From positions 2,478,162 to 2,542,161 of the forward strand of contig CP064976.1 in assembly GCA_016699445.1 (NCBI GenBank): a DNA stretch of 64,000 bases, read 5' to 3'. Shown here piece by piece: positions 1,797 through 42,174 of this stretch. Within the stretch, counting starts at the first letter, position 1, and every line of letters starts with the position of its first letter. This DNA comes from Deltaproteobacteria bacterium. Its GTDB lineage: Bacteria > UBA10199 > JACPAL01 > GCA-016699445. The position numbers were made by a program, and so were the translations under genes. The notes under the pieces are model-generated. The model did not search any database. It was given only the letters and a program-made list of their open reading frames with translations, and was not told the DNA's origin.

Positions 1797-4283
1797 ATGG
1801 ATGATATCGTCAAAGAGTTTTTGGTCGAAAGTAATGAAAACCTTGATCAGATGGACAGAAACTTTGTCGAGCTGGAAAAGGATCCCACCAACAAAGAGCT
1901 TCTTTCAGCTATTTTTAGAACCATACATACCATTAAGGGTACCTGCGGGTTTTTAGGATTTGGAAAGTTAGAATCCGTAGCTCATGTGGGCGAAAGTCTT
2001 TTGAGTAAACTTCGTGATGGGTCTCTCACTCTCAATCCCGATTTTACGACGATCTTGCTGACCATGGTTGATGCTGTCCGTCAGATGCTTTCATCTATAG
2101 AATCCAGTGGAGCTGAAGGCGATGTAGATTATTCACTCTTGGTTGAAAATTTGAATAAAGCTCAGCGAGGTGAACCTCTTAATCTCTCGGACTCTGCAAA
2201 ACCAGAAGCTAAACCTGAAGTAAAACCTGAGGTTAAAGTAACACCTCAAGAATCTGCCCCAGAAGTTAAAGCTGAGGTTAAGCCCGAAATTAAACCTGAA
2301 GTGATTGAGGCTAAAGTTGAAGTAAAAACTGAAATAGTACCTGAAGTACCGCCTCCGGTAGTAAAGATGGAAGAAGTTAAAATAGAGGTACCTAAAGCTC
2401 CCGAAAAACCAGCAGAACCCGTGAAGGCTCCAGAGCCTGTTAAAGCTGCCGAACCAGTTAAGGCTGCCGAACCGGTGAAAACTCCGGAGCCAGCCAAAGC
2501 TTCAGGGCCGGCGCCAACACCATCACCATCACCATCTCGAGGAGAAGCGAAAGCTGGAAGTTCTGTGGCGGATACAGCAATTCGTGTGGATGTGGGTCTT
2601 TTAGATAAGCTCATGAATCTTGTGGGTGAACTTGTTCTGGCTCGAAATCAGATTTTACAATTTACAGCCAAACAAGAAGACTCGACATTTGTCGCCGCCT
2701 CTCAACGACTCAATCTGATTACAAGTGAGTTGCAAGAAGGCGTCATGAAGACGCGCATGCAGCCTATTGGAAATATTTGGAGTAAATTTCCCCGCGTTGT
2801 TCGAGATCTAGCTACTATTTGTAAGAAAAAAATCCGTCTTCAAATGGAAGGCCAGGAAACTGAACTGGATAAAACCATCATCGAAGCTATCAAGGATCCT
2901 TTAACTCATTTGGTTAGAAATTCTGTCGATCATGGAATTGAAATGCCCGAAGAGCGGGCCGCTAAAGGAAAATCCGAAGAAGGTGTCATCTTGCTTCGAG
3001 CCTATCATGAGGGTGGTCAGGTCAATATTGAAATCTCTGATAACGGTGGTGGTATCAGCCCTGAAAAAGTAAAACAAAAAGCTCTTCAAAAAGGTCTCAT
3101 CACCGCAGAAGATGCAGCGCGTATGAGTGACCGTCTATTGGTAAATTTGATTTTCCTTCCCGGATTTTCCACTGCAGAAAAAGTCAGCAATATCTCAGGT
3201 CGCGGTGTGGGTATGGACGTGGTGAAAACCAATATCGAAAAAATTGGTGGTATGGTCGATATTCAAAGTAATCCCGGTGAAGGTACTACGATTAAAGTTA
3301 AAATTCCTCTTACGTTGGCAATTATTCCTGCTTTGATTGTCACCAGTGGTGGATGGAAATATGCGATTCCACAAGCCAGCTTGTTGGAACTGGTGCGTGT
3401 TGAAAATGAGCCAGGAAAAAAGAAAATCGAAAACATTCAAGGAGCTCCTGTTTATCGTTTGAGAGGTAAATTATTACCACTGGTCTATCTGCGTGAACAG
3501 TTGGGTGATTTTACAAAACCAAACGAAGAAAATGTGAATATCGTCGTCTTGCAAGCCGATGATCGTCATTTTGGTTTAGTGGTAGATGAAATTAACGACA
3601 CTCAGGAAATCGTTGTCAAACCTGTCGGTAAACAACTCAAAGGTGTTCCTACATTTGCGGGTGCTACAATTATGGGTGATGGGCATGTGGCGTTGATTTT
3701 GGACATTATGGGTATTGCACAGAGAGCTAATCTTGTTTCTGAGCTGCATGATCATGCTATTCAGGACATGAATAGTACTCAGGTGAAAAGTTCAGATGTT
3801 AAATCGATGTTACTTTTTGCCAGTCGTGACAACGGTCGTATGGCCGTTAATCTTTCCGAAGTCGCTCGATTGGAAAAGTTTGATAACAAAGAAATTGAAC
3901 GTGCTGGTGATCAGGAAGTTATCCAGTATCGTGGTGAAATCATGTCGCTGATTCGGGTGTCTTCTGTGATTCCTGAAAGACGACGTGTCCCTCGTGATGC
4001 CGAAGCTATTATTAAAAATGTCGGTGATTCTATTCAGGTCGTTGTCTATTCGCAAAATGGAAAAAATGTCGGGATCGTGATTGATAAGGTTTTGGATATT
4101 GTCGAAACCGATGAAGCTATTCAAGAAAGTGGCTCTCGCAAAGGTATTGCGGGTACTGTTGTGATTCAGGAGCGCATTACAGAAATTTTAGACATTCCGC
4201 GCGCGATCGATCTCTATCATCAAAAAATTCATCTGAATAAAACAGAAGAGCCTTTAGCTAAGGAGGAATCCTATGTCTCATGA
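1797..4283 (+). CDS. cheA: Chemotaxis histidine kinase CheA (P1, long low-complexity linker, P3-P4, two CheW-like domains)
   Basis: HTIKG phospho-His motif, IRVDVGLLDKLMNLVGELV dimerisation domain, HLVRNSVDHG and SGRGVGMDVV ATPase boxes, C-terminal CheW-like domains. Confidence 0.97.
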   Translation: MDDIVKEFLVESNENLDQMDRNFVELEKDPTNKELLSAIFRTIHTIKGTCGFLGFGKLESVAHVGESLLSKLRDGSLTLNPDFTTILLTMVDAVRQMLSSIESSGAEGDVDYSLLVENLNKAQRGEPLNLSDSAKPEAKPEVKPEVKVTPQESAPEVKAEVKPEIKPEVIEAKVEVKTEIVPEVPPPVVKMEEVKIEVPKAPEKPAEPVKAPEPVKAAEPVKAAEPVKTPEPAKASGPAPTPSPSPSRGEAKAGSSVADTAIRVDVGLLDKLMNLVGELVLARNQILQFTAKQEDSTFVAASQRLNLITSELQEGVMKTRMQPIGNIWSKFPRVVRDLATICKKKIRLQMEGQETELDKTIIEAIKDPLTHLVRNSVDHGIEMPEERAAKGKSEEGVILLRAYHEGGQVNIEISDNGGGISPEKVKQKALQKGLITAEDAARMSDRLLVNLIFLPGFSTAEKVSNISGRGVGMDVVKTNIEKIGGMVDIQSNPGEGTTIKVKIPLTLAIIPALIVTSGGWKYAIPQASLLELVRVENEPGKKKIENIQGAPVYRLRGKLLPLVYLREQLGDFTKPNEENVNIVVLQADDRHFGLVVDEINDTQEIVVKPVGKQLKGVPTFAGATIMGDGHVALILDIMGIAQRANLVSELHDHAIQDMNSTQVKSSDVKSMLLFASRDNGRMAVNLSEVARLEKFDNKEIERAGDQEVIQYRGEIMSLIRVSSVIPERRRVPRDAEAIIKNVGDSIQVVVYSQNGKNVGIVIDKVLDIVETDEAIQESGSRKGIAGTVVIQERITEILDIPRAIDLYHQKIHLNKTEEPLAKEESYVS
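2409..2498 (+). repeat. Five imperfect 18-bp tandem repeats in the CheA linker (xxEPVK)
   Basis: PAEPVK-APEPVK-AAEPVK-AAEPVK-TPEPAK encoded by units starting at 2409, 2427, 2445, 2463 and 2481. Confidence 0.85.
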
Positions 4284-4721: not shown

Positions 4722-6148
4722 ATGAATACGAGCTCATGGTCAATTAAGAAAAAAATGGGATCCACAATGACTGTGGTTATTTCTGTGATGGTTTTGATGG
4801 GTGCAATGATAGGCCTGTCTTTTTTCAAGTTTAATTCAGGAGTTTCAAGATTGGAAAAAGGTGTGGACGAGATGAATGCTGTCAAAGATCTCCAGCTGCA
4901 AGTGTCGAATATATGGCAATATCTCACTGATGCTTCATTGGTTCAAGATGGGGAAGGTCTCAAAGAAGCCAAAAAGTCATGGAAGAAGCTAATAAAAATA
5001 TTGCCGTTCTGATCGAGTTTAATCGTGATGATGCTCAGGGTTTAGAAAAAGTGAAGGCGATAGAAGCCTCATTGCCTAAAATGTTTCATATCGGAGAAGA
5101 GATGAGCAAGGCCTATGAAGTTTCCAAGTCTGAAGGGGATAAGGTCATGGGTGAGTTTGATGCGGCTGGATCTAAAGTCATCGAATCTCTTGAGCCATTA
5201 GCACAAAAAGAAGATCAGGATTCTGTTCAGGTAAAAAATGATATGCATCATGTGATTGTCGGTTTTGGAACTGCTTTGGGCCTTCTTTCTTTAGGAGCTA
5301 TTACTTTCTTATCGATAGTTTTAAAAGCACTCTCCAATCAGATTTCACAACCTTTGGATGAAGCCTGGAATTATTTAGCCACAGCCTCTCATGATCTTGT
5401 GTCTGTGAGTGGAACTCTCAATGTGAATGCTGAAGACACGGCGAATCGAGCGAATATGGTCTCAGCGGCTTCTGAGCAAATCAGTAAAAATATTCAGACT
5501 ATATCGACGAGTCTGGATCAGATGAATCAGGCTGTTCACGAAATTTCACAAAGCACAGCACAAGGAAACCAAGTAGTGAATGAAGCTGTACGGTCTGTTC
5601 AGGAAACTAATCAGAAAATTTCAAAATTAGGAGAAAGCAGTGAAGAAATTGGCAATGTCGTCAAAGTGATCACATCGATTGCTGAACAAACTAATCTTTT
5701 AGCTCTCAATGCGACCATTGAAGCGGCTCGTGCAGGTGAAGCAGGAAAAGGCTTTGCGGTTGTGGCCAATGAAGTGAAAGAACTCGCTAAACAAACAGCT
5801 AAAGCCACTGAAGAAATTAGCCAAAAAATTAATTTAATACAGACGGATTCCCAAGTGGCTGTCAAATCCATGGAAGATATCAGTCGTGTGATCAATCAGG
5901 TCCATGACCTGCAAAATACTATTGCCAGTGCTATTGAAGAACAAAGTGCCACCACCAGTGAAATGACTCGCAATGTGAGCGAAGCGGCAACAGGTAGCAA
6001 TGAAATCGCTCAAAATATCGTGAGTGTTGCTGTCTCGGCTCAAAAGACTTCTCAAGGAGCTGGTGAAACCAAGAGAGTGTCTGATTCATTACCCCGAATA
6101 TCTGATAAGATTCGGTCTTTAGTACAGGGTGCAGCTGTAAACATTTAA
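4722..6148 (+). CDS. Methyl-accepting chemotaxis protein 1 (one apparent frameshift near 4982)
   Basis: TM1 in ORF 4722-5012; periplasmic domain, TM2 and signalling domain in ORF 4979-6148. TCATGGAAG read as TCA TGG GAA restores a single frame. Confidence 0.88.
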
Positions 6149-7632: not shown

Positions 7633-9079
7633 ATGGATCTCAACAGAATGACAATTCAGAAAAAATAAATCTTCTGAATGCCTTTCTTTTTATCTCCTGT
7701 TTGCTGGTGGGAGGGATTGGGTACAAAGGGCTCCATGACCTCAATAATGACATTCGCCACTTAGGACAAGTGGACATGCAAGCTGTGCGCAACATGACTT
7801 TAGTGGATATGATGCATGATGGGTTGAGGGCTGTTGTTTATAAGTCAATCATCGCTTCTCAGACTGGCAATCAAGAGATGAAGACGGAAGCTCGAGATGA
7901 AATTAAAGAGTTTTCAGAAAATATGAATGTGTATTTGAAAACCTTGAATGATCTTCCTTTGGATCAAAAAATTAAAAAAGAGATTCAAGAATCCAAGCCC
8001 GTCGTCGATAATTATACACAAAATGCCACAAAGCTGGTCGCACTTGCTTTGGATGAAGGGTCTTCGCAGGCTTTGGCCAATATTGAACCTTTTGATAAAG
8101 CTTTTGGCGAATTAGAAGTAAAATTGGGTCAGCTCGGAGAAGAGATTGAAAAGGGTGCTGAGGAATCTTCGCTAACTTCTATTGAAGAAGGTAGCAATTA
8201 CAACCTCGTCTCCATAGCTCTTCTCTCCATTGTCTCTATCTTAAGTGCAGGTCTGTGGTTTTTTATCAATCGTGATATCAAATCGCCCATCGATGCCATG
8301 ATAAAAATTTCTCAGGATGTCGCAAATGCTTCCCAACAACTGACATCGGTGAGCCATCAAATGAGTAGCAGTTCGGAAGAAACATCATCTCAAGCCCGTG
8401 TGGTCTCTTCAGCAGCCGAACTGGTGAATAAGAATATTCAAACAGTGGCTACAGGATGGAACAAATGAATATGGCTGTTCAGGAGATCTCAAAGAGTACC
8501 AGCCAAGGAAATGCGGTTGTCAGTAATGCTGTGCAAACGGTTCAAGAAACAAACAAAGCCATCGCTAAATTAGGTGATAGCAGTGAACAAATTGGAAACG
8601 TTGTAAAAGTCATCACGTCAATTGCAGAACAGACAAACTTGCTTGCACTCAATGCCACCATTGAAGCGGCCCGTGCAGGTGAAGCCGGTAAAGGTTTTGC
8701 TGTCGTGGCCAATGAAGTGAAAGAGCTAGCGAAACAAACTTCTAAATCGACTGAAGAAATTAGTCAGAAGATTTCAATGATCCAAAATGACACCCAAGTG
8801 GCGATCAAGTCGATTGAAGAAATCAGTCAGATTATTTCTCAAATTAATGATCTTCAACACACAGTAGCCAGTGCCATTGAAGAACAAAGTGCGACTACAA
8901 GCGAAATTAGCCGCAGTGTCAGTGAAGCGGCCAAAGGTAGTGATGAAATTACGCAAAATATTACGGGTGTGGCCCAGGCTGCACAAAATACAAATACGGG
9001 TGCTAATGAAACCCAAAATTCAGCCTCTGAACTTTCCAAGATGGCTATTGAATTGAGATTGTCTGTAAGTCACTTTTAA
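7633..9079 (+). CDS. Methyl-accepting chemotaxis protein 3 (apparent frameshifts near 7665 and 8457)
   Basis: ATG 7633 with GGGGA RBS; one extra A in the A6 run gives [30 protein letters not shown]; GGA[A]TGGAACAA joins ORFs 7701-8468 and 8456-9079. Confidence 0.85.
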
Positions 9080-9460: not shown

Positions 9461-9855
9461 GTCTACATGCCATAATCATCGATGATGCACGTTCTGTACG
9501 CATGATTTTAAAAAAAATGATGGTGGAGCTGGGTTTTACCGTTGAAGAAGCTGAAGACGGTAAAAAGGCTCTTGAAATTCTTGTCCAGAATGGTCCGGCG
9601 GATGTGGCACTTGTAGATTGGAATATGCCTGTCATGAATGGTTTTGAGTTTATCCAGGAAGTCAGAAAACAATCCATCTATGATGAAATGAAAATCATGA
9701 TGGTCACTACTGAATCAGAGCTGGTCCGTATGATTGCAGCTCTGGAAGCCGGAGCCAATGAGTATGTGATGAAGCCCTTCACCAAGGACATCATCGTCGA
9801 AAAACTGACAATCATGGGGTTGATTAACAATGAAAACGCGAGTGCTGCTCATTGA
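9457..9855 (+). CDS. cheY: CheY-like single-domain response regulator (tandem paralog)
   Basis: ATGA overlap with the upstream stop; IDD, LVDWNMP, MVTT and GANEYVMKPF motifs. Confidence 0.9.
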   Translation: MSLHAIIIDDARSVRMILKKMMVELGFTVEEAEDGKKALEILVQNGPADVALVDWNMPVMNGFEFIQEVRKQSIYDEMKIMMVTTESELVRMIAALEAGANEYVMKPFTKDIIVEKLTIMGLINNENASAAH

Positions 9856-10909
9856 TGATTCAGTCGTTGTCCGAAAAATCGTGGGAGATGCTGTCTCATC
9901 GCATCCTGATTTAGAAGTTGTCGGAAAAGCGGCTAATGGAAAACTAGGTCTCGAGATGATTCCTCAGGTGAATCCTGATGTGATTGTTCTCGATGTCGAG
10001 ATGCCTGAGATGGATGGCATTACCACTCTTAGAGAAATCAGAAAAATTTATAAAAATCCAAAAGTGATTATGTTTAGCACTCTGACTCAACGAGGAGCTG
10101 ATATCACCTTGGAAGCTTTGTCTATTGGTGCTGTTGACTATTTTGCTAAACCGACCAATCTGAGCAATGTTGAAGAAGTCACAAAATATTTAAAAGATGG
10201 TCTGGTTCAAAAAATAAAATTTTTAGGACCTACTGGAAAAAATGAATTGCTCACAGCTTTTCACCATCCTCCACAAACCAGTAATGCTCTGAAATCAGCT
10301 CCTGTTGTCAGCAGTACCACAGCACAAAAAGTAGAAATTGTTGCTATTGGTACGTCTACGGGGGGGCCTAATGCTTTGGGAAGTATTTTCCCCAATATTC
10401 CAGAAAAATTTCCAGTGCCGATTGTGATTGTTCAACACATGCCACCGGTTTTTACGAAACATTTAGCGGATCGTCTGAATTCAAAATCAAAAGTACGTGT
10501 TTATGAAGGAACAGAAGGCGCTATTTTGAAACCAGGTGAAGCTTGGATTGCCCCGGGCGATTTTCACATGACAGTCAAAAAAGAAGGGCTGAACTATGTT
10601 CTTCATCTCAATCAGCAGCCCCCTGAAAATTCATGCCGACCAGCCGTGGATGTGTTGTTTCGTTCAGTGGCTGAAGCTTATGGCCAATCAGCCTTGGGTA
10701 TTGTTTTAACGGGGATGGGACAGGATGGATTTAGAGGTTGTGAAAATCTCACTCATGTGGGTTCACGTGCTATTGTTCAAGATGAAGCTTCAAGTGTCGT
10801 GTGGGGAATGCCTGGGTTTGTCGCTAAAGCAGGATTAGCCGAAAAGGTGTTGCCCCTAGATCAGATTATTCCAGAAGTCGTAAGACGTGTCTCTTATGGG
10901 AGACTATAA
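9830..10909 (+). CDS. cheB: Chemotaxis methylesterase CheB (receiver + esterase)
   Basis: N-terminal receiver (LDVEMP); catalytic GTSTGG, VQHMP and LTGMGQDG motifs. Confidence 0.97.
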   Translation: MKTRVLLIDDSVVVRKIVGDAVSSHPDLEVVGKAANGKLGLEMIPQVNPDVIVLDVEMPEMDGITTLREIRKIYKNPKVIMFSTLTQRGADITLEALSIGAVDYFAKPTNLSNVEEVTKYLKDGLVQKIKFLGPTGKNELLTAFHHPPQTSNALKSAPVVSSTTAQKVEIVAIGTSTGGPNALGSIFPNIPEKFPVPIVIVQHMPPVFTKHLADRLNSKSKVRVYEGTEGAILKPGEAWIAPGDFHMTVKKEGLNYVLHLNQQPPENSCRPAVDVLFRSVAEAYGQSALGIVLTGMGQDGFRGCENLTHVGSRAIVQDEASSVVWGMPGFVAKAGLAEKVLPLDQIIPEVVRRVSYGRL

Positions 10910-10918
10910 GGTAACTCT

Positions 10919-11749
10919 ATGACTATTAGTTCTACAGATTTTGATTTTGTTCGAAATTATGTGAAGAGTAAATCGGCTATTACTCTGGAAGCAGGTAAGG
11001 AGTATCTTGTCGAAACTCGTTTGAGTTCTATTATTGTTTCAGAAGGTCTCAAAGATATTTCAGATCTTGTCATAAAGATGAAAGAAAGGGCTGACAGTCC
11101 TTTGCATGCCAGAGTGTTGGATGCGATGACGACTAATGAAACTTTCTTCTTCAGAGACATCACTCCTTTTGAAGTTTTGAAAAAAGAAGTCATTCCCGAT
11201 TTGCTCTCCCGTCGTTCTCCCAATGGTCCCTTAAATATCTGGTGTGCGGCTTCTTCTAGTGGTCAGGAGCCATATACGATTTCAATGGTGATTGCCGACA
11301 ATTTCCCATCACTTAAGACACCGGGCTGCCTGACATTTATTGCCAGTGATATTTCTCAGCAGATGTTAGCCAAAGCCAAGTCAGGACTTTATACTCAGCT
11401 AGAAGTTAACCGAGGTCTTCCCGCGGCTTTGTTAGTGAAACATTTTACAAAAGTAGGTCTGGACTGGCAGATTAAAGACGAAATCAAACGTATGGTGGAC
11501 TACCGCATGATTAACCTCTCCACGACGTTTCCTTCTTTGCCCCAGATGGATATTATTTTTATCAGAAATGTTCTGATTTATTTTGAAGTCGAAGTTAAAA
11601 AGAAAATTCTGGAACAAATTCGAAAAGTTATGAAGCCAGACGCCTACCTCTTTTTGGGAGGCTCTGAGACGACTTTTAATCTGGATGATAATTTTGAACG
11701 TTGTGACTTGAATAAAACAGTCGCGTATCGACTAAAGAAACCAAAATAG
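10919..11749 (+). CDS. cheR: Chemotaxis methyltransferase CheR
   Basis: TTNETFFFRD, IWCAASSSGQEPYT, ASDIS and IFIRNVLIYF motifs. Confidence 0.97.
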   Translation: MTISSTDFDFVRNYVKSKSAITLEAGKEYLVETRLSSIIVSEGLKDISDLVIKMKERADSPLHARVLDAMTTNETFFFRDITPFEVLKKEVIPDLLSRRSPNGPLNIWCAASSSGQEPYTISMVIADNFPSLKTPGCLTFIASDISQQMLAKAKSGLYTQLEVNRGLPAALLVKHFTKVGLDWQIKDEIKRMVDYRMINLSTTFPSLPQMDIIFIRNVLIYFEVEVKKKILEQIRKVMKPDAYLFLGGSETTFNLDDNFERCDLNKTVAYRLKKPK

Positions 11750-11831: not shown

Positions 11832-12284
11832 ATGGCTTACGAAGAACAGATTGCTCAAATAGTCAGCAGTATTTTGAACACCATGGTGGGTTGGCAAGTA
11901 ACTCCCTTGAGCCAGTCGGAAATAGTCCCTGAAGATCCTGAAAAAATTTCAGTCAGTGGCTGTGTCACCATAGGCGGGGATTGGGAAGGTTGTGTTATCC
12001 TGACCATGCCTCAAAACATTGCTCATGAATCTGCTGATACCATGTTTGCCCTCGATCCCGGAGCTGCTTCCAAAGAAGAAGTGAGGGATTGTGTGGGAGA
12101 ATTGACCAACATGATTGGTGGAAATTTTAAATCTCAATTGGAAGGCAAAAATATGCTTTCGATTCCATCGGTGGTGGAAGGAAAAGAATATACAGTATCA
12201 TCACCGGGTCTGCACCGGGTCTGTAGTCAGCTTTTTGAATATGACGGTAAAAATTTTGAAGTGAGTGTACTTCAACGTATTTAA
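11832..12284 (+). CDS. cheX: CheX-type CheY-P phosphatase
   Basis: D-x3-E-x2-N motif (DCVGELTNMIGGN) followed by LSIP; 150 aa; AAGGAG RBS. Confidence 0.9.
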   Translation: MAYEEQIAQIVSSILNTMVGWQVTPLSQSEIVPEDPEKISVSGCVTIGGDWEGCVILTMPQNIAHESADTMFALDPGAASKEEVRDCVGELTNMIGGNFKSQLEGKNMLSIPSVVEGKEYTVSSPGLHRVCSQLFEYDGKNFEVSVLQRI

Positions 12285-12296
12285 GGGGGGGGAGAT

Positions 12297-12665
12297 ATGC
12301 CAAAAAATGTGCTCGTCGTTGACGATTCAGGTGTTATGAGAAAAATGATTGGTCGCAGTTTAAGACAGGCTGGTCTTGATTGCGGTGAAATTTTTGAGGG
12401 TGGGGATGGTGTCGAAGGCTTAAGCCTTCTGAGTAGCCATCCAGAAGTCGCCTTGATTTTATCTGATTGGAATATGCCCAATATGGATGGGATCACTTTT
12501 GTGAAAGAGGTGAGGGCCAAGGGTATCAATACTCCCATTGTGATGATCACTACAGAAGCCACAGATTCTAGAGTCGCTGATGTCAAAGCCGCAGGGGCCA
12601 ATGGTTATGTCTGTAAACCTTTTACCCCTGAAGCACTTCAAAAAGAATTAGGTGGGTTCTTTTAA
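12297..12665 (+). CDS. cheY: CheY-like response regulator
   Basis: VDDS, LSDWNMP, MITTE and GANGYVCKPF motifs. Confidence 0.9.
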   Translation: MPKNVLVVDDSGVMRKMIGRSLRQAGLDCGEIFEGGDGVEGLSLLSSHPEVALILSDWNMPNMDGITFVKEVRAKGINTPIVMITTEATDSRVADVKAAGANGYVCKPFTPEALQKELGGFF

Positions 12666-12698
12666 TAAAGGAAACGTCGAAAACTTTTCGACTCGCAT

Positions 12699-13757
12699 AT
12701 GATCCCGTTAGTCACCATCGCCGGTGCCAATTTTAACAAATTAAATCCTCAGGCCAGGTCTTATTTTGAAGAGATCGCCACCAAGCTTGGCATTTTGGTG
12801 AATCAGCCAACCAAGATCGATCAGATCGAAGTTTTTTCGGGTTCTTTTGAATCCTTCTTTAAATCCTATCCTAAGGATTTCATGCTCACCAAAATGGCAT
12901 GGGATGGAAAAGAAGGTCTGATTTTATTTTTAACATCCATGGGGCTGGCCATTGAAGCTTCAGGATTTATGATGGGATTTCCGGCCAATACTGTTAAGGA
13001 AAAAGTCGCCAAGGTTCAATTTGATGGTGAAGTGGAAGAAGCTTTTGGAGAAGTGTCCAATCAATTGTGGGGAAATATCAATCAATGTCTGATTGGTAAA
13101 ATCGATAAAAATATCCGACTGTCTCTTAAGACAACCTGCAAACTACCTCAGGATGGTTCTAAAAATTCTGAAGTCGATGATTTGTTTTATGTGATTCTGA
13201 AGTGTCAGGTGCACATGTCGGATGTTGATCCGCAGCCTCTTTATCTTTTGATTAGTCATCTTTTAGCCAAAGATATTTTTGATGTGTTACTAGAGCCTCC
13301 ACAAATCGACAAAGAAACTGTGTTTAACAAGCTCACACAGGATTTGGATGCCGTGACAGCTGAGCAGGTGATGATGAAGGATTATCCAACTATCGATATC
13401 AATAAATCCTTAAGTGATGCTTATCAATGTATGATAGATCATAAAGTGGACGCGCTCCCTTTGATACAAGCTGGTAAAGTCATTCGAGTGATTACCAAAA
13501 ATAATCTGGAAATCATAAAATCTGTTTTTTTCGATGCCCCTGGACAAGAGGAAAGAAATCGAAAAATTCTTCAGTTTCCCCTGATGCGAGTGAGTGCAAA
13601 TCAAAAGCTGATTTCCGTAGGCCCTCAGGATCTGGTGGGATCCATTGTTAAAAAAATGTATGAAACACACATCCACACAATGCCTGTAGTGAATGCAGAT
13701 TCCCAACTTCTAGGAATGATATTTTCTCTCGATCTTTTAAGAAAAATTTTAGGGTGA
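12699..13757 (+). CDS. CheC/CheX-fold domain fused to a tandem CBS pair
   Basis: EAFGEVSNQLWGN matches the acidic-x3-E-x2-N phosphatase motif; the C-terminal ~140 aa has two CBS repeats (VMMKDYPTID...DALPLIQAGKVIRVIT; ISVGPQD...HTMPVVNADSQLLGMIF). Confidence 0.7.
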   Translation: MIPLVTIAGANFNKLNPQARSYFEEIATKLGILVNQPTKIDQIEVFSGSFESFFKSYPKDFMLTKMAWDGKEGLILFLTSMGLAIEASGFMMGFPANTVKEKVAKVQFDGEVEEAFGEVSNQLWGNINQCLIGKIDKNIRLSLKTTCKLPQDGSKNSEVDDLFYVILKCQVHMSDVDPQPLYLLISHLLAKDIFDVLLEPPQIDKETVFNKLTQDLDAVTAEQVMMKDYPTIDINKSLSDAYQCMIDHKVDALPLIQAGKVIRVITKNNLEIIKSVFFDAPGQEERNRKILQFPLMRVSANQKLISVGPQDLVGSIVKKMYETHIHTMPVVNADSQLLGMIFSLDLLRKILG

Positions 13758-15439: not shown

Positions 15440-17451
15440 ATGAAAAAATTACTCCTCACTTTGAGTTTCGGTGTTTTTCTATTGTCTTTGCTCAAGCGGC
15501 AAAGGCTTTTACAATTTCTTGTGATCCATCTTTTCAATGTCGTGATGCCATGGGGCGCGACGTCTATGTCGCCTGTCAAAGAGTGGTGTGTGATCGTACG
15601 GTGGGGCCCTTCGTCCTGATGGGATGTTAAGTGGCTTGTGTCGTGTGAGCACGAGTCCTGCCGATCGTAATCACACTTGTTGTACCTCCTATGCTGAATG
15701 TGATGATAGAAATGCCTGTACCAAAGACGAATGTAACCTCACGACCAATACATGTGTTCACACCATGTCTTTGCCTCCTTCAACGCCTCCTGATGAATGT
15801 AAACAGTGGGATTGCAGGCTTTCTGATGGTGTGTGGAATCTTGTGCCAACCTCGGACGGGATGGCCTGTAGAGATGATGGAAATAGCTGCACACTGGATC
15901 GCTGTCAGATGGGTGCTTGCGCGCATCCAGCATTACCAAGTCCAACAACCCCTCCGATGCCTTGTTACCAATGGTCTTGTTTAGGAGGATCCACAGGTTG
16001 GATTCAAACCCCTAATGATACTTTATCTTGTGATGATGGAAATCCATGTACCAACACCGCCTGTCGTTCGGGGCATTGCCAGGATATAACCACTCCAGCC
16101 GAAGCTTCACTTTTGTGTCCACGTCCTCGATGCACAGCTTTGGATGCTGCTACAACATGTGATGACAGAGATCCTTGCACTGTGGATACGTGTTCATCCG
16201 GATTTTGCCGTAATTCACCAGTCACAGCAGCTTCTATTGATGATAGTAATTTGTGCACTCAAGACATGTGTTCTCCAGATAGGGGTATTACCCATACGCC
16301 TCTTGTTTTTAATGATAACAATGTTTGTACGACTGATTCCTGTGATGCACGCACTGGACTTCCATTGTTTGTCCCTCGTCCTGTTGAGGATGATGGGAAT
16401 CCTTGTACAAAAGACGTTTGTGATCCTGTTTTTGGAATGTTGCATAGTCTGGATATCAGTCGGGGTTATGAATGTTTTGAAGGCAGTGATTGTGACATGA
16501 GTACTTGTCGAAGACGAATTGTATCGATTCCAACCTGTACGGTAGATTGTCGCCAGACGTTTATGAGTCTGATAGGTATTCGAGTTGTTCCTCAAAATGA
16601 ATCCAATGTTCAATGTGCTTTTAGTCTCAATACTCAAGGAGTGACAGGGATTAGTTGTCGTGGTGAGAGTGGAGATTTTACAACATCAGGAAGCCTTCCT
16701 GTGGAGACGGGTACGACTGGGCTCAAAACCATTCGGGCTTTTTGTAAAACACCCAGTGATTATCGTTTTTCCTGCGAAGATAATTTGAGTGTGATCGCAC
16801 GTGTGGGAAGTGGTGGATCTGGAGGCCAAGTTGGAAGTGGGGGAATGAATGGTGCTGCTGGAAGTGGAGGTATCTCTTTACAAGCTTCGGGAGGTGGTTC
16901 GGGACGTGGCAGCGCCGGAAGTGGTGGTATTTCTCCTCCCATTCCAACAGTGGTTGGTTTTTCAAATTATGATGTTTATTTTTGTGTCGCCAATGAAACG
17001 ACAGCTTTTAATTTAAGAGGAGAGAGAATTGAGTTGGCCACACCTTGTCCTGAACTTCCTGTGGCTCAAGCTGTTGAAGATGATCAGAGATTGATTGCCG
17101 AAACATTGTTGGATGTGGATCCTGCCAGTGATCATTTTGCCCAAAATGTCCGGCCTTGATTGCTTTGACAGTTCAAAATGGATGTCTTCTGAAATGGATC
17201 GTAGTCTTTATGCCTTACAAACAGGTTCGGCATCGACGTCTTCGATGTCTTTTCGTCAAATTCTTCCAGCTGAAAAACCAATTGTACGGAGTAATTTTAA
17301 TCGTTATTTTCGTGTGACGGCCTATGGTATTGAAAATCAAATGTCCAATTCCACAGATGCACATCCTTTGTTTTCAGAAAATGCTTCTACTCCTCAAGCT
17401 ATCTTACTTAACTTTGAACGTATTTATGCCGAAGGCGGGGTTGTTCCCTGA
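15440..17451 (+). CDS. Secreted Cys-rich repeat protein (Dictyostelium-type C-DD-x-N-x-CT-x-D-x-C repeats), ~670 aa after three apparent frameshifts
   Basis: Signal peptide MKKLLLTLSFGVFLLS[F]AQAAKA from 15440; seven DD.N.CT.D.C-like repeats and a G/S-rich linker in ORF 15624-17159; the plausible C-terminus continues in ORF 17095-17451. Confidence 0.65.
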
Positions 17452-17457
17452 TTTTAC

Positions 17458-19486
<2,029 letters not shown>

Positions 19487-19490
<4 letters not shown>

Positions 19491-20435
19491 AAACTCTCCC
19501 AATCCTTCCAAACAGGCTCGTAGCCTTTTTGTTGGATGACGTGAGCCACTTCTTCAGGGCTACGATCATCTTCGATTTCAAATTGTTTCAAACTTTTTCA
19601 GGTTGTTGATAACCACCAGGTTCTAGGCGTGAACCCGCACTCATGCGTGTGATACCTAAACCTATCAATTGATCACGCAGAGCAGGTGATTCGCGTGTGG
19701 ATAAAACAATGCCCACTTCTGGAAGTTCACAACGAAGCATCGCAATCAATTCAATAAACTCCTCATCAGAAACAGGGTGGGGAATTTCAAATGATGAAGC
19801 GCACGGACGCAAGCGTGGTAGGCTGATGGTAATTTCTGTTTGCCAATATTTTTTCTGAATGTGTCGGACATGTTTGATGAGAGCTGCCGCATCTTTTTGA
19901 TGATCGGCAAGCCCCAGAAGAATACCCATTCCCAATTGACGGACTCCGGCTTTAGCAACTTCTTCAGGTGCTAGGATGCGTTGTTGGTAATCTTTCTTAG
20001 GACCGCCTTTGTGCATTTTGGCGTAAATCTCAGGATCGTAAGTCTCTTGATACATGACGACTCCGTCCAATCCAGCTTGAGTCAAACGTCGGTAAACAGC
20101 AGCCTCAAAAGGTGCGACTTCAATCGAGAGTGCAGACACAAATGGCTTTAGCTTCAACAGACAAGCTTCCAAGTAATCCGGCGATACGTGTTTGGGATGT
20201 TCGCCTGCGACAAGCAAAATATGCTGAAAATTTTGATGTATGAGAAACTGAGCTTCACTTAAAACCTCATCAGGAGTGAGTGTTTTGCGTTCAATTCTAT
20301 TTTCACGACTAAAGCCGCAATAGGTACAGGTATCGACACATTCATTTGAAAGATAAAGTGGTGCGTAGAGTTGGATGGTTTTTCCAAAACGTTGAAGGTG
20401 AGATCGCGGGCTTTTTTTAATAATTGTATATTCAT
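19487..20435 (-). CDS. thiH: 2-iminoacetate synthase ThiH (radical SAM; apparent frameshifts near 20399 and 19603)
   Basis: [19 protein letters not shown] (CxxxCxxC), [18 protein letters not shown] motifs. The corrected N-terminus reads [13 protein letters not shown][L]QRFG and the corrected C-terminus [13 protein letters not shown]...[12 protein letters not shown]. Confidence 0.88.
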
Positions 20436-21290: not shown

Positions 21291-21494
21291 TTAACCCCCT
21301 CCAACTGCACGGATGAGTTCGATGACGTCATTGTGCCGGATTGTGTGTGTTTCAAACTGTGAATGGGAAATAATTTCCGCATTGATGGCAATCGCCAGAG
21401 CTTTGTTTTCTATTTTGAGCTGTGAAAGTAGGGTGGAAAGAGAAATTTCCGAATCAAAAGTCTGAATCTGTCCATTGACAGTAATCGTAATCAT
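21291..21494 (-). CDS. thiS: Sulfur carrier ThiS
   Basis: 67 aa, ITVNGQ start, C-terminal VGGG. Confidence 0.93.
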   Translation of the reverse strand: MITITVNGQIQTFDSEISLSTLLSQLKIENKALAIAINAEIISHSQFETHTIRHNDVIELIRAVGGG

Positions 21495-21582
21495 GTTTCC
21501 CTCCGCCCGCATTATCGGGATCAGGTTTTAAGGGTTTCTCTGTCTCAACAGAGATCTCAGCTGACCATCAGCACCCCTGATT
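21495..21582 (-). ncRNA. TPP riboswitch
   Basis: Minus strand reads AGGGGTGC...GCTGAGA...ACCCTT AAAACCTGATCCCGATAATGCGGGCGGAGGGA, the canonical TPP aptamer core, directly upstream of thiS. Confidence 0.95.
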
Positions 21583-21583
21583 T

Positions 21584-22177
21584 TTAGTGAGTCTTTATTC
21601 CATTAATAGACTGCAGTTCGATAATAGCTTCGTCATGCTGTTGTACTTTATGTGCAACATAATCCATTTTCTCATTAAGCTCAGAAATTCCCTGTGTGTT
21701 TTGATCAACTTTAAGACTTAATGAAGCAATATCACCTTTAAGTTCAGTCCTAAGATCCTGCATATCACCTTTAAGTTCAGTCCTAAGATCCTGCATATCA
21801 CCTTTAAGTTCAGTTCTAAGATCCTGAATATCACCTTTAAGTTCGGTTCTAAGATCCTGAATATCACCTTTGAGTTCGGTTCTAAGATCCTGAATATCAC
21901 CTTTAAGTTCGGTTCTGAACGTTTCAATTTTGTCTACAAGTGATCTTCTTGTAAAATCTAATTCGTCTCTAATATCTTTGATATCGAGTTTGATGGTTTG
22001 AATCTCTTCTTTCATGCTTGCTTGAAATCCAAGCAAACCTTCAGCAACAGCTCTAAACTCACTTTTCAGATCCTCAACCAAAACTGCAGTGTAATGGGAA
22101 ACTGATTCTGACTTATTGGAAATATCAGAAACTTTTTTGGTGCTTTTAAGGGCTTTTTTAGACGTGCTTTTTTTCAT
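21584..22177 (-). CDS. Coiled-coil protein with 11-aa (hendecad) repeats; resembles DUF1640/BDR-type proteins
   Basis: Likely start MKKSTSKK at 22177; basic N-terminus, then VLVEDLKSEFRAVAEG, then TELKGD(I/M)QDLR repeats. Confidence 0.7.
   Translation of the reverse strand: MKKSTSKKALKSTKKVSDISNKSESVSHYTAVLVEDLKSEFRAVAEGLLGFQASMKEEIQTIKLDIKDIRDELDFTRRSLVDKIETFRTELKGDIQDLRTELKGDIQDLRTELKGDIQDLRTELKGDMQDLRTELKGDMQDLRTELKGDIASLSLKVDQNTQGISELNEKMDYVAHKVQQHDEAIIELQSINGIKTH
21729..21916 (-). repeat. 5.7 tandem copies of a 33-bp unit (coding VNTR)
   Basis: Plus-strand unit ATATCACCTTT(A/G)AGTTC(A/G)GT(C/T)CTAAGATCCTG(C/A) starting at 21729, 21762, 21795, 21828, 21861 and 21894 (partial); no spacers. 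Confidence 0.95.
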
Positions 22178-41900: not shown

Positions 41901-42174
41901 TGCCGGATTACCTGTTTCCCCTGTCAATAAAGTCGCTCAAGGTGGTTTCAATATTGTCGATATGATGGACAAAGGTGAAGTGTCCATGGTGATCAATACT
42001 CCGGAAGGTTCTTCTTCAGCCAAAGATTCGGCTTACATCCGTCGAAAATCTGTTCAAAAAGGCATTCCATACTTTACGACAGCGGCAGCAGCTGTCGCAG
42101 CGGCTGAAGGCATCAAAGCCTTGAAACATCATGGTTTGTCGGTGCAGTCGATGCAGGAATATTTGACTCCTTAG
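38957..42174 (+). CDS. carB: Carbamoyl-phosphate synthase large subunit (apparent frameshift near 39503)
   Basis: [63 protein letters not shown] domain; one extra A in the A5 run joins the ORFs. Confidence 0.96.

What the first reader, a model, noticed from the sequence alone, without database searches (positions are those of the whole stretch)
12699..13757. CheC/CheX-type phosphatase domain fused to a CBS pair closes the chemotaxis operon
Seen in sequence: the last gene of the che operon has an E-x3-E-x2-N motif (EAFGEVSN..GN) like the CheX two genes upstream (DCVGELTN..GN), followed by two CBS repeats. The proline that usually follows ~22 residues later is replaced (LSLK). Established: CheC/CheX/FliY domains dephosphorylate CheY-P, and CBS pairs bind AMP/ADP/ATP, SAM or c-di-AMP. 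Inference: an adenylate-gated CheY phosphatase that couples energy charge to motility at the output stage, alongside the Aer-like receptor at the input stage. I know of no characterised example of this fusion.
Basis: partly seen in the sequence, partly recalled or inferred. Interest (0 to 1): 0.7.

Follow-up and report, generated by a model that had tools for sequence, protein, structure and literature searches.

The report
CheC-type CheY phosphatase fused to CBS sensor
The last chemotaxis gene of this operon encodes a previously unannotated CheC/FliY-type domain that keeps the catalytic Glu/Asn pair of CheY-P phosphatases, fused to a CBS (small-molecule-sensing) pair and always encoded next to one dedicated CheY, so it is probably a ligand-regulated brake on the chemotaxis signal, which no one has yet tested.

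Summary
ORF 12699-13757 (+, 352 aa) is intact and confirmed by independent metagenome contigs.

- **C-terminal part:** residues ~215-350 are a clear CBS pair (Pfam E 1.4e-15).
- **N-terminal part:** residues 1-202 fold as a full-length CheC/FliY-type domain. The AF2 model has pLDDT 94, and all 37 significant PDB fold matches are CheC/CheX/FliY/FliM. The best is the T. maritima FliY middle domain. It resembles CheC/FliY more than CheX.
- **Motif:** EAFGE118VSN121 aligns with the second active site of FliY and CheC. Across 200 related domain instances, E118 is kept in 199 and N121 in 186. The first active site and the motif proline are absent.
- **Family:** the fusion defines at least 21 clusters (50% identity), annotated only as "CBS domain-containing protein".
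- **Gene context:** in every locus with upstream sequence the gene directly follows one orthologous CheY. A CheX usually precedes that CheY.

Phosphatase activity is a strong inference. Ligand gating is plausible: one canonical ribose-binding signature is conserved in all 21 members. The ligand is unknown, and "energy charge" is speculation. I rate it a new variant of a known kind, of moderate to high interest.

The parts
12699..13757 (+). Whole gene: 352-aa CheC/FliY-like domain fused to a CBS pair (P0001)
   Evidence: ORF list. Homologues are collinear over the full length. No indels in independent contigs. Metatranscriptome contig fragments lie at 12974-13124 and 13143-13293.
12699..13304 (+). 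N-terminal CheC/FliY-type domain, residues 1-202 (two alpha-beta3-alpha halves)
   Evidence: AF2 pLDDT 94.4, pTM 0.89. By Foldseek, all 37 hits with E<=1e-3 are CheC/CheX/FliY/FliM; best is 4hyn FliY at TMq 0.74. The family profile matches the FliY sequence at E 4e-15 to 5.7e-23 and CheC at 2e-7 to 2e-5.
13038..13061 (+). Active-site motif E114-A-F-G-E118-V-S-N121 on the long helix 110-134 (second-site position of CheC/FliY)
   Evidence: Aligned to GEAMN of FliY and REIGN of CheC, and to GELTN of the operon's CheX. E118 is kept in 199/200 and N121 in 186/200 domain instances. These are the only near-invariant columns in A3/A4.
13341..13523 (+). CBS motif 1 (about residues 215-275) with the conserved R263-V-I-T266-K-N-N269 ribose-type signature
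   Evidence: Pfam CBS best stretch 222-269. T/S266 is kept in 20/21 and D/N269 in 21/21 fusion proteins (read from the alignment).
13521..13556 (+). Invariant inter-CBS linker S275-VFFDAPGQEE-R286
   Evidence: Invariant in the five close homologues. F277 and R286 are invariant in all 21 fusion proteins. Low pLDDT at 277-281. Function unknown.
13575..13748 (+). CBS motif 2 (about residues 293-350); G339 invariant, ribose-binding Asp position not conserved
   Evidence: Second Pfam CBS stretch. NCBIfam local hits at 298-351. Alignment A5. Fold matches to CBS pairs MJ0922, AcuB and AMPK gamma.
12297..12665 (+). Adjacent cheY (122 aa, canonical DD / D57 / T / K, SDWNMPNMDG): the conserved partner and likely substrate
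   Evidence: Pfam Response_reg E 3e-24. It lies immediately upstream of the fusion gene in every locus with upstream sequence. These CheYs are 54-93% identical to each other and 26-39% to other CheYs of the same operons. An RNA contig at 12447-12701 spans the junction.
11832..12284 (+). Canonical cheX (150 aa), first gene of the cheX-cheY-cheC/CBS triad
   Evidence: Pfam CheX E 1.6e-23. Present upstream of the CheY in 6 of the 7 distinct relatives with upstream sequence; the P0004 loci have only cheY plus the target.

Best explanation
**Proposed function.** The gene encodes a cytoplasmic, two-domain CheY-P phosphatase of the CheC/FliY lineage whose activity is set by a C-terminal CBS pair (Bateman module).

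**What is shown.**
- Residues 1-202 have the full pseudo-twofold CheC/FliY fold.
- The first active site is lost. The second (E118-x2-N121 on helix 110-134) is under very strong conservation.
- The gene forms a conserved module with one particular CheY, usually preceded by a CheX.

**What follows from the established mechanism of the family.** This rests on the B. burgdorferi CheX-CheY3-BeF3 structure and on the summary in PMC12887009. The helix docks on phosphorylated CheY. The Glu contributes to binding, and the Asn positions the water that attacks the aspartyl phosphate. This shortens the lifetime of the adjacent CheY-P.

**What is inferred only.**
- The CBS pair retains one canonical T/S-x-x-D/N ribose-binding signature, an unusual conserved Arg263 and an invariant FF...R linker. 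I infer that it binds an adenosyl-type ligand (identity unknown), dimerises, or both, and thereby switches or tunes the phosphatase.
- A metabolic or second-messenger signal would then enter the pathway at the CheY-P level.
- CheX would provide constitutive dephosphorylation and the CBS fusion conditional dephosphorylation of the same CheY.
For: **Fold.**
- Full-length model: pLDDT 78.
- N-domain model: pLDDT 94.4, pTM 0.89.
- Foldseek against the PDB: all 37 hits with E<=1e-3 are CheC/CheX/FliY/FliM, then a sharp drop. FliY 4hyn TMq 0.74/TMt 0.77; CheC 0.61-0.66; CheX 0.47-0.54.

**Sequence.**
- A 30-sequence family profile hits T. maritima FliY at E 5.7e-23 and CheC at 1.8e-7.
- After removing the one bona fide FliY-like row, it still hits FliY at 4e-15 and CheC at 2.3e-5.
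- 41 of 99 relatives hit Pfam CheX, best 2e-15.

**Active site.**
- E118/N121 align with the second active site of FliY and CheC and with the site of the operon's CheX.
- They are the only columns at least 90% conserved in 150- and 99-sequence alignments.
- E is kept in 199/200 and N in 186/200 domain instances.

**Link to receiver domains.**
- The same N-domain type is fused to REC domains in about 21 clusters.
- The fusion gene directly follows a 118-122-aa CheY in every locus that has upstream sequence. This includes relatives only 21-24% identical, and one locus where the pair sits apart from the che core.
- Those CheYs form one orthologous group.

**CBS pair.**
- Pfam E 1.4e-15, with fold matches to nucleotide-binding CBS pairs.
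- The CBS1 T/S-x-x-D/N signature is kept in 20-21 of 21 members.

**Expression.** Metatranscriptome contigs cover parts of the gene and the cheY-gene junction.
Against: - No biochemical data exist for any member.
- The protein on its own is below the Pfam CheX gathering score (18.1 versus 27 bits).
- The five-sequence profile does not reach CheC or CheX in the PDB. hhalign against CheX gives only 17% probability.
- The motif proline is missing, and position -4 is Glu rather than Asp/Ser.
- Three of 21 fusion proteins have lost the Asn, and one of them the Glu too (P0010, P0012, P0117). Catalysis is therefore not indispensable in every lineage.
- CheC itself is a weak phosphatase whose main role in B. 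subtilis is regulatory (own knowledge).
- The second CBS motif lacks the conserved ribose-binding Asp.
- The ligand cannot be read from sequence. CBS pairs can act purely as dimerisation or protein-binding modules.
- The inter-domain arrangement is uncertain (pTM 0.53).
- The RNA evidence is a few low-depth contigs and could include DNA carry-over.
Confidence: 0.6

Rival explanations
1. It is a constitutive CheY-P phosphatase, and the CBS pair serves only as a dimerisation or scaffolding module. It would replace the beta-sheet dimer interface of CheX, with no physiological ligand control.
For: CBS pairs commonly dimerise (own knowledge). CheX works as a dimer (PMC12887009). The second CBS motif has lost the ribose-binding Asp in most members. 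No ligand can be assigned from sequence.
Against: The CBS1 T/S-x-x-D/N signature is conserved in 20-21 of 21 members. So are Arg263, Phe277 and Arg286, across two subclades that otherwise share about 20% identity. That pattern is more than a dimer interface usually requires. A canonical CheX is already encoded two genes upstream, so a second unregulated phosphatase for the same CheY would be redundant.
Confidence: 0.2
2. It is a non-catalytic or weakly catalytic CheY-P-binding adaptor, like FliM or B. subtilis CheC. It would sense CheY-P through the CheC-like domain and pass the signal to another partner through the CBS pair. Stand-alone CBS proteins regulate enzymes by binding them in this way.
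For: FliM middle domains are among the best fold matches. Three family members lack the Asn. The motif proline is absent. CBS proteins such as ribosome-associated archaeal CBS proteins and AcuB are the nearest solved relatives of the C-terminal half.
Against: FliM-type proteins do not keep E-x2-N. Here these are the two best conserved residues of the whole superfamily sample. There is no GGXG FliG-binding motif, no N-terminal CheY-binding peptide and no FliN domain (sequence). No conserved third partner gene lies next to it: the downstream genes differ among loci.
Confidence: 0.12
3. It is a generic CBS-domain protein whose N-terminal region resembles CheX only by chance and has nothing to do with chemotaxis.
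For: Public annotation is only 'CBS domain-containing protein'. Pfam CheX is sub-threshold. A [DSE]x3Ex2N match is expected 0.16 times per protein of this composition.
Against: High-confidence fold match restricted to the CheC superfamily. Profile-level sequence homology at E 4e-15. Motif conservation. Invariant adjacency to a CheY and frequent adjacency to CheX and che genes.
Confidence: 0.02

Closest known systems
Thermotoga maritima FliY middle domain (PDB 4HYN), a CheC-family CheY-P phosphatase domain of the flagellar switch
   Same: Best structural match (TMq 0.74, TMt 0.77 over about 197 columns) and best sequence-profile match over the full domain (E 4e-15 to 5.7e-23). It has the same two-half topology. 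The second active site GEAMNQ aligns with GEVSNQ of the target.
   Different: FliY has two active sites, a GGSG (GGXG) loop, an N-terminal CheY-binding peptide and a C-terminal FliN domain, and it sits in the rotor. The target has only the second site, FMMGFP in place of the GGXG loop, no FliN domain and a CBS pair instead (sequence).
CheC (T. maritima 1XKR/2F9Z; B. subtilis CheC)
   Same: Stand-alone cytoplasmic domain of about 200 aa with the same fold (TMq 0.61-0.66; profile E about 2e-7). The E-x2-N of its second site (REIGN) aligns with E118/N121.
   Different: CheC has two active sites and is activated in trans by CheD. Here the first site is absent and no CheD is encoded in the operon or in the related loci. 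A covalently attached CBS pair is the candidate regulator.
CheX (B. burgdorferi 3HZH with CheY3-BeF3; T. maritima 1XKO; the operon's own CheX at 11832-12284)
   Same: A single active site at the equivalent helix. The motif aligns. It is encoded in the same module next to the same CheY.
   Different: CheX is about 150 aa, lacks the first helix/half arrangement and dimerises through its beta-sheet. Structural similarity is lower (TMq 0.47-0.54), the Pfam CheX score is sub-threshold, and the proline that is invariant in the CheX set (P112) has no counterpart in the target.
CBS-pair-regulated enzymes and stand-alone CBS proteins (IMPDH, CBS-pyrophosphatase, AMPK gamma, AcuB, MJ0100, CbpB/DarB)
   Same: A tandem CBS pair attached to or acting on a catalytic unit. 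The fold matches AMP/ADP/ATP/SAM-bound structures. One canonical ribose-binding signature is retained.
   Different: None of these regulates a response-regulator phosphatase. Sequence similarity is generic (best PDB E 3e-12; NCBIfam only local sub-threshold hits). The FF...R linker and Arg263 are family-specific.
Vibrio cholerae PlzC-CheX and B. subtilis CheD-CheC: regulation of CheC-family phosphatases in trans
   Same: A conceptual precedent. The activity of a CheC-family phosphatase is modulated by a separate signalling input to tune CheY-P. For PlzC acting on CheX, see the abstract of PMC12799141. For CheD-CheC, see the complex 2F9Z among the hits and my own knowledge.
   Different: Those regulators are separate proteins (a PilZ protein and a deamidase). 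Here the putative sensor is fused in cis and is a CBS pair.

Membership tests
CheC/CheX/FliY phosphatase superfamily | Alpha/beta fold with two alpha-beta3-alpha halves (pseudo-twofold) | tested here: met
   AF2 pLDDT 94.4. Secondary structure runs H9-34, E38-49, E61-68, E75-80, H81-91 / H110-134, E141-149, E163-173, E179-186, H187-194. All 37 Foldseek hits with E<=1e-3 belong to the superfamily.
CheC/CheX/FliY phosphatase superfamily | Significant match of the protein itself to the curated Pfam models (CheX PF13690 / CheC PF04509) | tested here: not met
   CheX E 0.0028, 18.1 bits against a cut-off of 27; no CheC hit.
CheC/CheX/FliY phosphatase superfamily | Profile-level sequence homology to members with solved structure | tested here: met
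   Family profile against T. maritima FliY: E 5.7e-23. CheC: 1.8e-7. Haloarcula CheC-like 3qta: 3e-4. Without the FliY-like row: 4e-15 and 2.3e-5. 41/99 relatives hit Pfam CheX.
CheC/CheX/FliY phosphatase superfamily | Catalytic E-x2-N on the long helix | tested here: met
   E118-V-S-N121 lies in helix 110-134 and aligns to the active sites of FliY, CheC and CheX. Conserved in 199/200 and 186/200 domain instances.
CheC/CheX/FliY phosphatase superfamily | D/S four residues before the Glu (D/S-x3-E-x2-N) | tested here: inconclusive
   The target has Glu114. In the family sample this column is D 155, E 40, S 3 of 200, so an acidic residue is kept but not the consensus letter.
CheC/CheX/FliY phosphatase superfamily | Proline 21-22 residues after the Asn | tested here: not met
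   L143/K144 occupy that position. The column is not Pro in the family sample. The first Pro after the motif is P150.
CheC/CheX/FliY phosphatase superfamily | Accelerates CheY-P dephosphorylation | not testable with these tools
   Needs a biochemical assay.
CheC/CheX/FliY phosphatase superfamily | Encoded with che genes / a CheY substrate | tested here: met
   It is the last gene of cheA-W-mcp-Y-Y-B-R-X-Y. A CheY lies immediately upstream in every locus with upstream sequence.
CheX subfamily | About 150-aa single-site protein with CheX topology, matching PF13690 above threshold | tested here: not met
   The domain is about 200 aa with both halves. TMq to CheX is 0.47-0.54 against 0.74 to FliY. 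Pfam is sub-threshold. The PDB profile search gives CheX E 0.34-0.46.
CheC (class I, CheD-dependent) | Two active sites and a CheD partner | tested here: not met
   There are only two ExxN in the whole protein (118 and 284), and none in the first helix. No CheD gene is among the operon genes here or in L001.
FliY / FliM flagellar switch proteins | N-terminal CheY-binding peptide, GGXG loop, C-terminal FliN domain | tested here: not met
   No FliMN_C hit. FMMGFPANT stands where FliY has LMMGGSGE. The N-terminus starts directly with helix 1.
CBS pair (Bateman module) | Two tandem CBS motifs folding as beta-alpha-beta-beta-alpha units | tested here: met
   Pfam CBS E 1.4e-15, two stretches. Fold matches to MJ0922, MJ0100, AcuB and AMPK gamma with TMt about 0.8. 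PDB sequence hits.
CBS pair (Bateman module) | Adenosyl-ligand signature G-h-h-(T/S)-x-x-(D/N) in each motif (signature from own knowledge) | tested here: inconclusive
   CBS1: R-V-I-T266-K-N-N269, with T/S in 20/21 and D/N in 21/21. CBS2: G339 is invariant but the final D/N is not conserved. Binding itself is not testable here.

The most novel reading that the evidence does not exclude
CheC-CBS proteins would be an unrecognised class of sensor phosphatases. A small-molecule signal (an adenine nucleotide, SAM or a cyclic dinucleotide) would be read by the CBS pair and converted directly into the lifetime of one dedicated CheY-P. Together with CheX this would form a three-gene 'regulated phosphate drain' (cheX-cheY-cheC/CBS). 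The module would inject metabolic state into chemotaxis downstream of the receptors, in Magnetococcales and in uncultured wastewater and freshwater bacteria.
Probability: 0.4. Interest if true: 0.7.

Novelty: new variant of a known kind. Interest (0 to 1): 0.55.

Why it matters
**Known regulation versus this fusion.** CheY-P phosphatases set the time constant of bacterial chemotaxis. Regulation of the CheC family is known only in trans: CheD on CheC, and PlzC on CheX. A CheC-type domain covalently joined to a ligand-sensing CBS pair would be the first built-in sensor on this enzyme class. It would be a direct route for metabolic or second-messenger information to enter the pathway at the output stage.

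**A testable system.** The work defines the following:
- a family of at least 21 clusters at 50% identity;
- a fixed CheY partner;
- two point mutations, E118A and N121A;
- a short list of candidate ligands.

**Annotation gap.** Pfam and NCBI annotation miss the N-terminal domain entirely. A wider set of CheC-like proteins is also only partly recognised. It includes tandem two- and three-domain forms and REC fusions, about 164 clusters in all.

Tried and rejected
- **Five-homologue profile against PDB sequences.** It gave no CheC/CheX hit, only chance matches at E 0.18-1.7. A broader 30-sequence profile was needed.
- **hhalign of the five-sequence N-domain profile against seven CheX sequences.** It aligned the motif correctly but with only 17% probability, so it is not used as evidence of homology.
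- **Scan of 185,579 species genomes.** It found only one relative, the same MAG as P0002.
- **Word-indexed protein search.** It found only four homologues. The exhaustive HMMER search was needed to see the family.
- **First-site guess.** I first read S21-x3-E25-x2-T28 as a degenerate first active site. The profile alignment instead puts the FliY first site opposite L15/Q18. Either way there is no E-x2-N there.
- **Intergenic palindrome GTCGAAAACTTTTCGAC (12676-12692).** Its RNA fold is no better than shuffles (z -0.36). It is flagged as terminator-like only on the minus strand. I rejected it as a regulatory element.
- **Terminator after the gene.** None was found on the plus strand.
- **Literature.** Three full-text searches gave no paper on a CheC/CheX-CBS fusion.
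- **Ligand assignment.** NCBIfam and PDB sequence searches gave only generic CBS similarity.
- **Taxonomy.** I did not resolve the window's taxonomy. The nearest relative is labelled only 'uncultured Pseudomonadota'.
Full report
**1. What is at the coordinates**

The ORF at 12699-13757 (+) runs from ATG to TGA and encodes 352 aa. It is the last che-related gene of a plus-strand cluster:
- cheA at 1797-4283
- cheW
- three MCP genes
- two cheY genes
- cheB at 9830-10909
- cheR at 10919-11749
- cheX at 11832-12284
- a third cheY at 12297-12665
- the target, 33 nt after that cheY

murJ starts 73 nt after the target's stop codon. No terminator-like site on the plus strand lies between them, so 'closes the operon' is true only for che genes.

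The window carries single-base deletions that artificially split several neighbouring genes. Independent metagenome contigs show no indel in the target and only one SNP. Four close homologues (44-66% identity) start and end at the same positions.

**2. The two halves**

Pfam finds a CBS pair (E 1.4e-15, two stretches). It also finds a sub-threshold CheX match at residues 72-147 (E 0.0028; 18.1 bits against a 27-bit cut-off).

BLASTP against the operon's own CheX aligns EVEEAFGEVSNQLWGN with EVRDCVGELTNMIGGN (E 5e-4 for that single comparison).

The motif as a bare pattern is not remarkable. [DSE]x3Ex2N is expected 0.16 times in a protein of this composition, and E-x2-N occurs twice, at 118 and 284. 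The question was therefore whether the N-terminal part is really homologous to CheC/CheX.

**3. Fold**

An AF2 model of the full protein (five-sequence alignment, pLDDT 78) matched two groups of structures. The N-terminal part matched the T. maritima FliY middle domain, FliM middle domains, CheX and CheC. The C-terminal part matched CBS pairs.

A model of residues 1-207 built on a 30-sequence alignment is confident (pLDDT 94.4, pTM 0.89). It has two alpha-beta3-alpha halves.

In a PDB-wide Foldseek search, all 37 hits with E<=1e-3 are CheC/CheX/FliY/FliM structures. The next hit has E 0.14.

| Structure | TM-score (query-normalised) |
|---|---|
| FliY 4hyn | 0.74 (0.77 target-normalised) |
| CheC | 0.61-0.66 |
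| CheX | 0.47-0.54 |

So it is a full-length CheC/FliY-type domain rather than a CheX.

**4. Sequence homology and the wider family**

An exhaustive HMMER search with the N-domain profile against 1.84 billion cluster representatives gave 164 proteins at E<=1e-3. My own domain scan of the 153 proteins in hand gave these architectures:

| Architecture | Proteins |
|---|---|
| N-domain alone | 58 |
| Two tandem copies | 43 |
| Three tandem copies | 8 |
| N-domain + REC | 18 (plus 3 tandem + REC) |
| N-domain + CBS pair | 21 |

- Of 99 of these proteins, 41 hit Pfam CheX (best 2e-15), 4 hit CheC and 2 carry a FliN domain.
- A 30-sequence profile hits the T. maritima FliY sequence over its full length at E 5.7e-23. 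It hits CheC at 1.8e-7 and CheX only at 0.34.
- After I removed the one bona fide FliY-like row, the values are 4e-15 and 2.3e-5.

Homology to the CheC family is therefore established at profile level, although the single protein fails the curated Pfam threshold.

**5. The active site**

In both the 150- and the 99-sequence alignments, the only columns conserved at 90% or more are E118 and N121 of the target.

Over 200 individual domain instances:
- E118 is Glu in 199.
- N121 is Asn in 186.
- Position 114 is D 155, E 40, S 3.
- G125 is Gly in 177.

The profile alignments place E118-V-S-N121 opposite GEAMN of FliY and REIGN of CheC. That is the second active site of those proteins.

The first helix has no E-x2-N, so the first site is gone. 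The consensus proline 21-22 residues after the Asn is absent (L143/K144), and it is not a conserved Pro in this family.

According to the family consensus and mechanism summarised in PMC12887009, the Glu takes part in binding CheY-P and the Asn positions the attacking water. The proline is part of the consensus but not of the chemistry.

Three of the 21 CBS fusions have lost the Asn (P0010, P0012, P0117), and P0010 has lost the Glu as well.

**6. Gene context**

Every locus with upstream sequence has a 118-122-aa CheY immediately upstream of the fusion gene:
- L001-L003 and L007
- L004 and L005
- L009, for P0029 at 21% identity
- L010 and L011
- L012, next to flagellar genes
- L014 and L015

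A CheX, or two, precedes that CheY in all of these except L004/L005. There the CheY-fusion pair sits 4 kb away from a cheA-cheW-mcp cluster. Genes downstream of the fusion differ from locus to locus.

The adjacent CheYs form one orthologous group. They are 54-93% identical to each other and 26-39% identical to the other CheYs of the same operons. They carry the canonical SDWNMPNMDG segment and all phospho-acceptor residues.

The same N-domain type is also found fused to REC domains, which independently ties it to receiver domains.

**7. The CBS pair**

The 21 fusion proteins fall into two subclades. One has a short linker and the motif SVFFDAPGQEER. The other has a long low-complexity linker and MGPFFGTKAMSARDKA; it includes Magnetococcales MAGs.

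- Invariant across both subclades: F277, R286, Q302, P329 and G339. R263 is nearly invariant.
- The first CBS motif keeps the T/S-x-x-D/N signature that binds the ribose in adenosyl-ligand CBS sites (signature from my own knowledge): T/S in 20/21 and D/N in 21/21.
- The second motif keeps the Gly but not the acid.

This argues for one functional ligand site, but it does not identify the ligand. NCBIfam and PDB sequence searches give only generic CBS similarity.

**8. Expression**

Wastewater metatranscriptome assemblies contain short contigs identical to 12974-13124 and 13143-13293, inside the gene. One contig at 12447-12701 crosses from cheY into the gene's first codon. This is consistent with transcription and co-transcription. 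Depth is low and DNA carry-over cannot be excluded.

**9. Interpretation**

- **Shown:** a CheC/FliY-type domain with a single, strongly conserved second active site, a CBS pair, and a fixed CheY neighbour.
- **Inferred from the established mechanism of the family:** it dephosphorylates that CheY-P.
- **Inferred more weakly:** the CBS pair gates or tunes this through a bound ligand, dimerisation, or both. A canonical CheX in the same module makes a second, conditional phosphatase a sensible division of labour.

I put about 0.95 on family membership at superfamily level, about 0.7 on phosphatase activity towards the adjacent CheY, and about 0.45-0.5 on ligand gating. The composite statement is given 0.6.

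Rivals:
- A constitutive phosphatase with a structural CBS pair: 0.2.
- A FliM-like CheY-P-binding adaptor: 0.12.
- Chance resemblance: 0.02.

**10. Comparison with what is known, and novelty**

- It works like CheC/FliY/CheX, and at superfamily level it is a member.
- It is not a CheX (size, topology, score).
- It is not a class I CheC (one site, no CheD).
- It is not a FliY or FliM (no GGXG loop, no FliN domain, no N-terminal CheY-binding peptide).

Public names for members are only 'CBS domain-containing protein'. Three full-text searches found no paper that describes a CheC/CheX-CBS fusion.

Known regulation of this enzyme family is in trans: PlzC on CheX in V. cholerae (PMC12799141), and CheD on CheC.

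I therefore rate it a new variant of a known kind. It is interesting mainly because it offers a concrete, testable case of metabolic or second-messenger input at the CheY-P level. The reading 'energy charge' remains speculation.

Noticed in passing
window 847, 8453, 15486, 15606, 17155, 17174, 19481: Independent metagenome contigs carry one extra base at each of these places. The window therefore has single-base deletions, probably assembly errors. Several genes in this stretch are split or truncated: the PAS-MCP (108-836 / 761-1624), an MCP (7701-8468 / 8456-9079), thiC (three ORFs, 18000-19581) and the start of the Cys-rich Dicty_CTDC-like gene (15624-17159). The extra bases at 847 and 8453 fall at or beside the PAS-MCP and MCP split points. 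19481 lies inside the thiC stretch but not at either ORF junction. The MCP at 4722-5012 / 4979-6148 looks split in the same way, but no contig covered it.
   Followed up: partly
window 38957-39574 and 39541-42174 (+): carB (carbamoyl-phosphate synthase large chain) appears truncated at its N-terminus: the 877-aa ORF starts in the middle of the first ATP-grasp domain. A 205-aa ORF overlaps just upstream. This is probably another frameshift artefact.
   Followed up: no
window 21481-21588 (-): TPP riboswitch (Rfam RF00059, 72.6 bits, E 2.3e-12) upstream of the minus-strand thiamine biosynthesis genes (thiS/thiG/thiH-like/thiC).
   Followed up: no
window 12676-12692: Perfect palindrome GTCGAAAACTTTTCGAC between the cheY stop and the target ATG. 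The predicted RNA hairpin is no more stable than shuffled sequence, and no T-run follows on the plus strand. No Shine-Dalgarno-like sequence lies within 10 nt of the ATG.
   Followed up: yes
P0013-P0025 and others; e.g. P0013 635 aa, P0014 826 aa: A sizeable group of proteins has two or three tandem CheC-like domains, each keeping D-x3-E-x2-N (DAFGEVAN, DSYGEIAN). Those inspected (P0013, P0014, P0016) end in a C-terminal receiver-like domain, though REC was detected in only a few. Pfam recognises them only partly. They look like multi-site CheY-P phosphatases and seem undescribed.
   Followed up: partly
window 13521-13556 (residues 275-286): The linker between the two CBS motifs, SVFFDAPGQEER, is invariant in close homologues. 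F277 and R286 are invariant in all 21 fusion proteins, yet the segment is modelled with low confidence (pLDDT below 50 at 277-281). It is a candidate ligand-phosphate or partner-binding loop. It remains unexplained.
   Followed up: partly
P0010, P0012, P0117 (alignment A5): Three members of the CheC-CBS family have replaced the catalytic Asn (by S, S and T). P0010 has also replaced the Glu (by K), while keeping the CBS pair and its signature. They may be pseudo-phosphatases that still bind CheY-P.
   Followed up: no
window 15624-17159 (+); L001 12691-14706: A large Cys-rich secreted-type protein with Dictyostelium CTDC repeats (Pfam E 4.5e-28) lies two genes downstream of the target and is conserved in the closest relatives. 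This is unusual for bacteria and unrelated to the finding.
   Followed up: no
runs X1-X20: Near-identical sequence is found almost only in wastewater, activated-sludge and riverine metagenomes, including metatranscriptomes. The organism is an uncultured wastewater bacterium (window GC 41.6%). The nearest genome record is labelled only 'uncultured Pseudomonadota'.
   Followed up: partly
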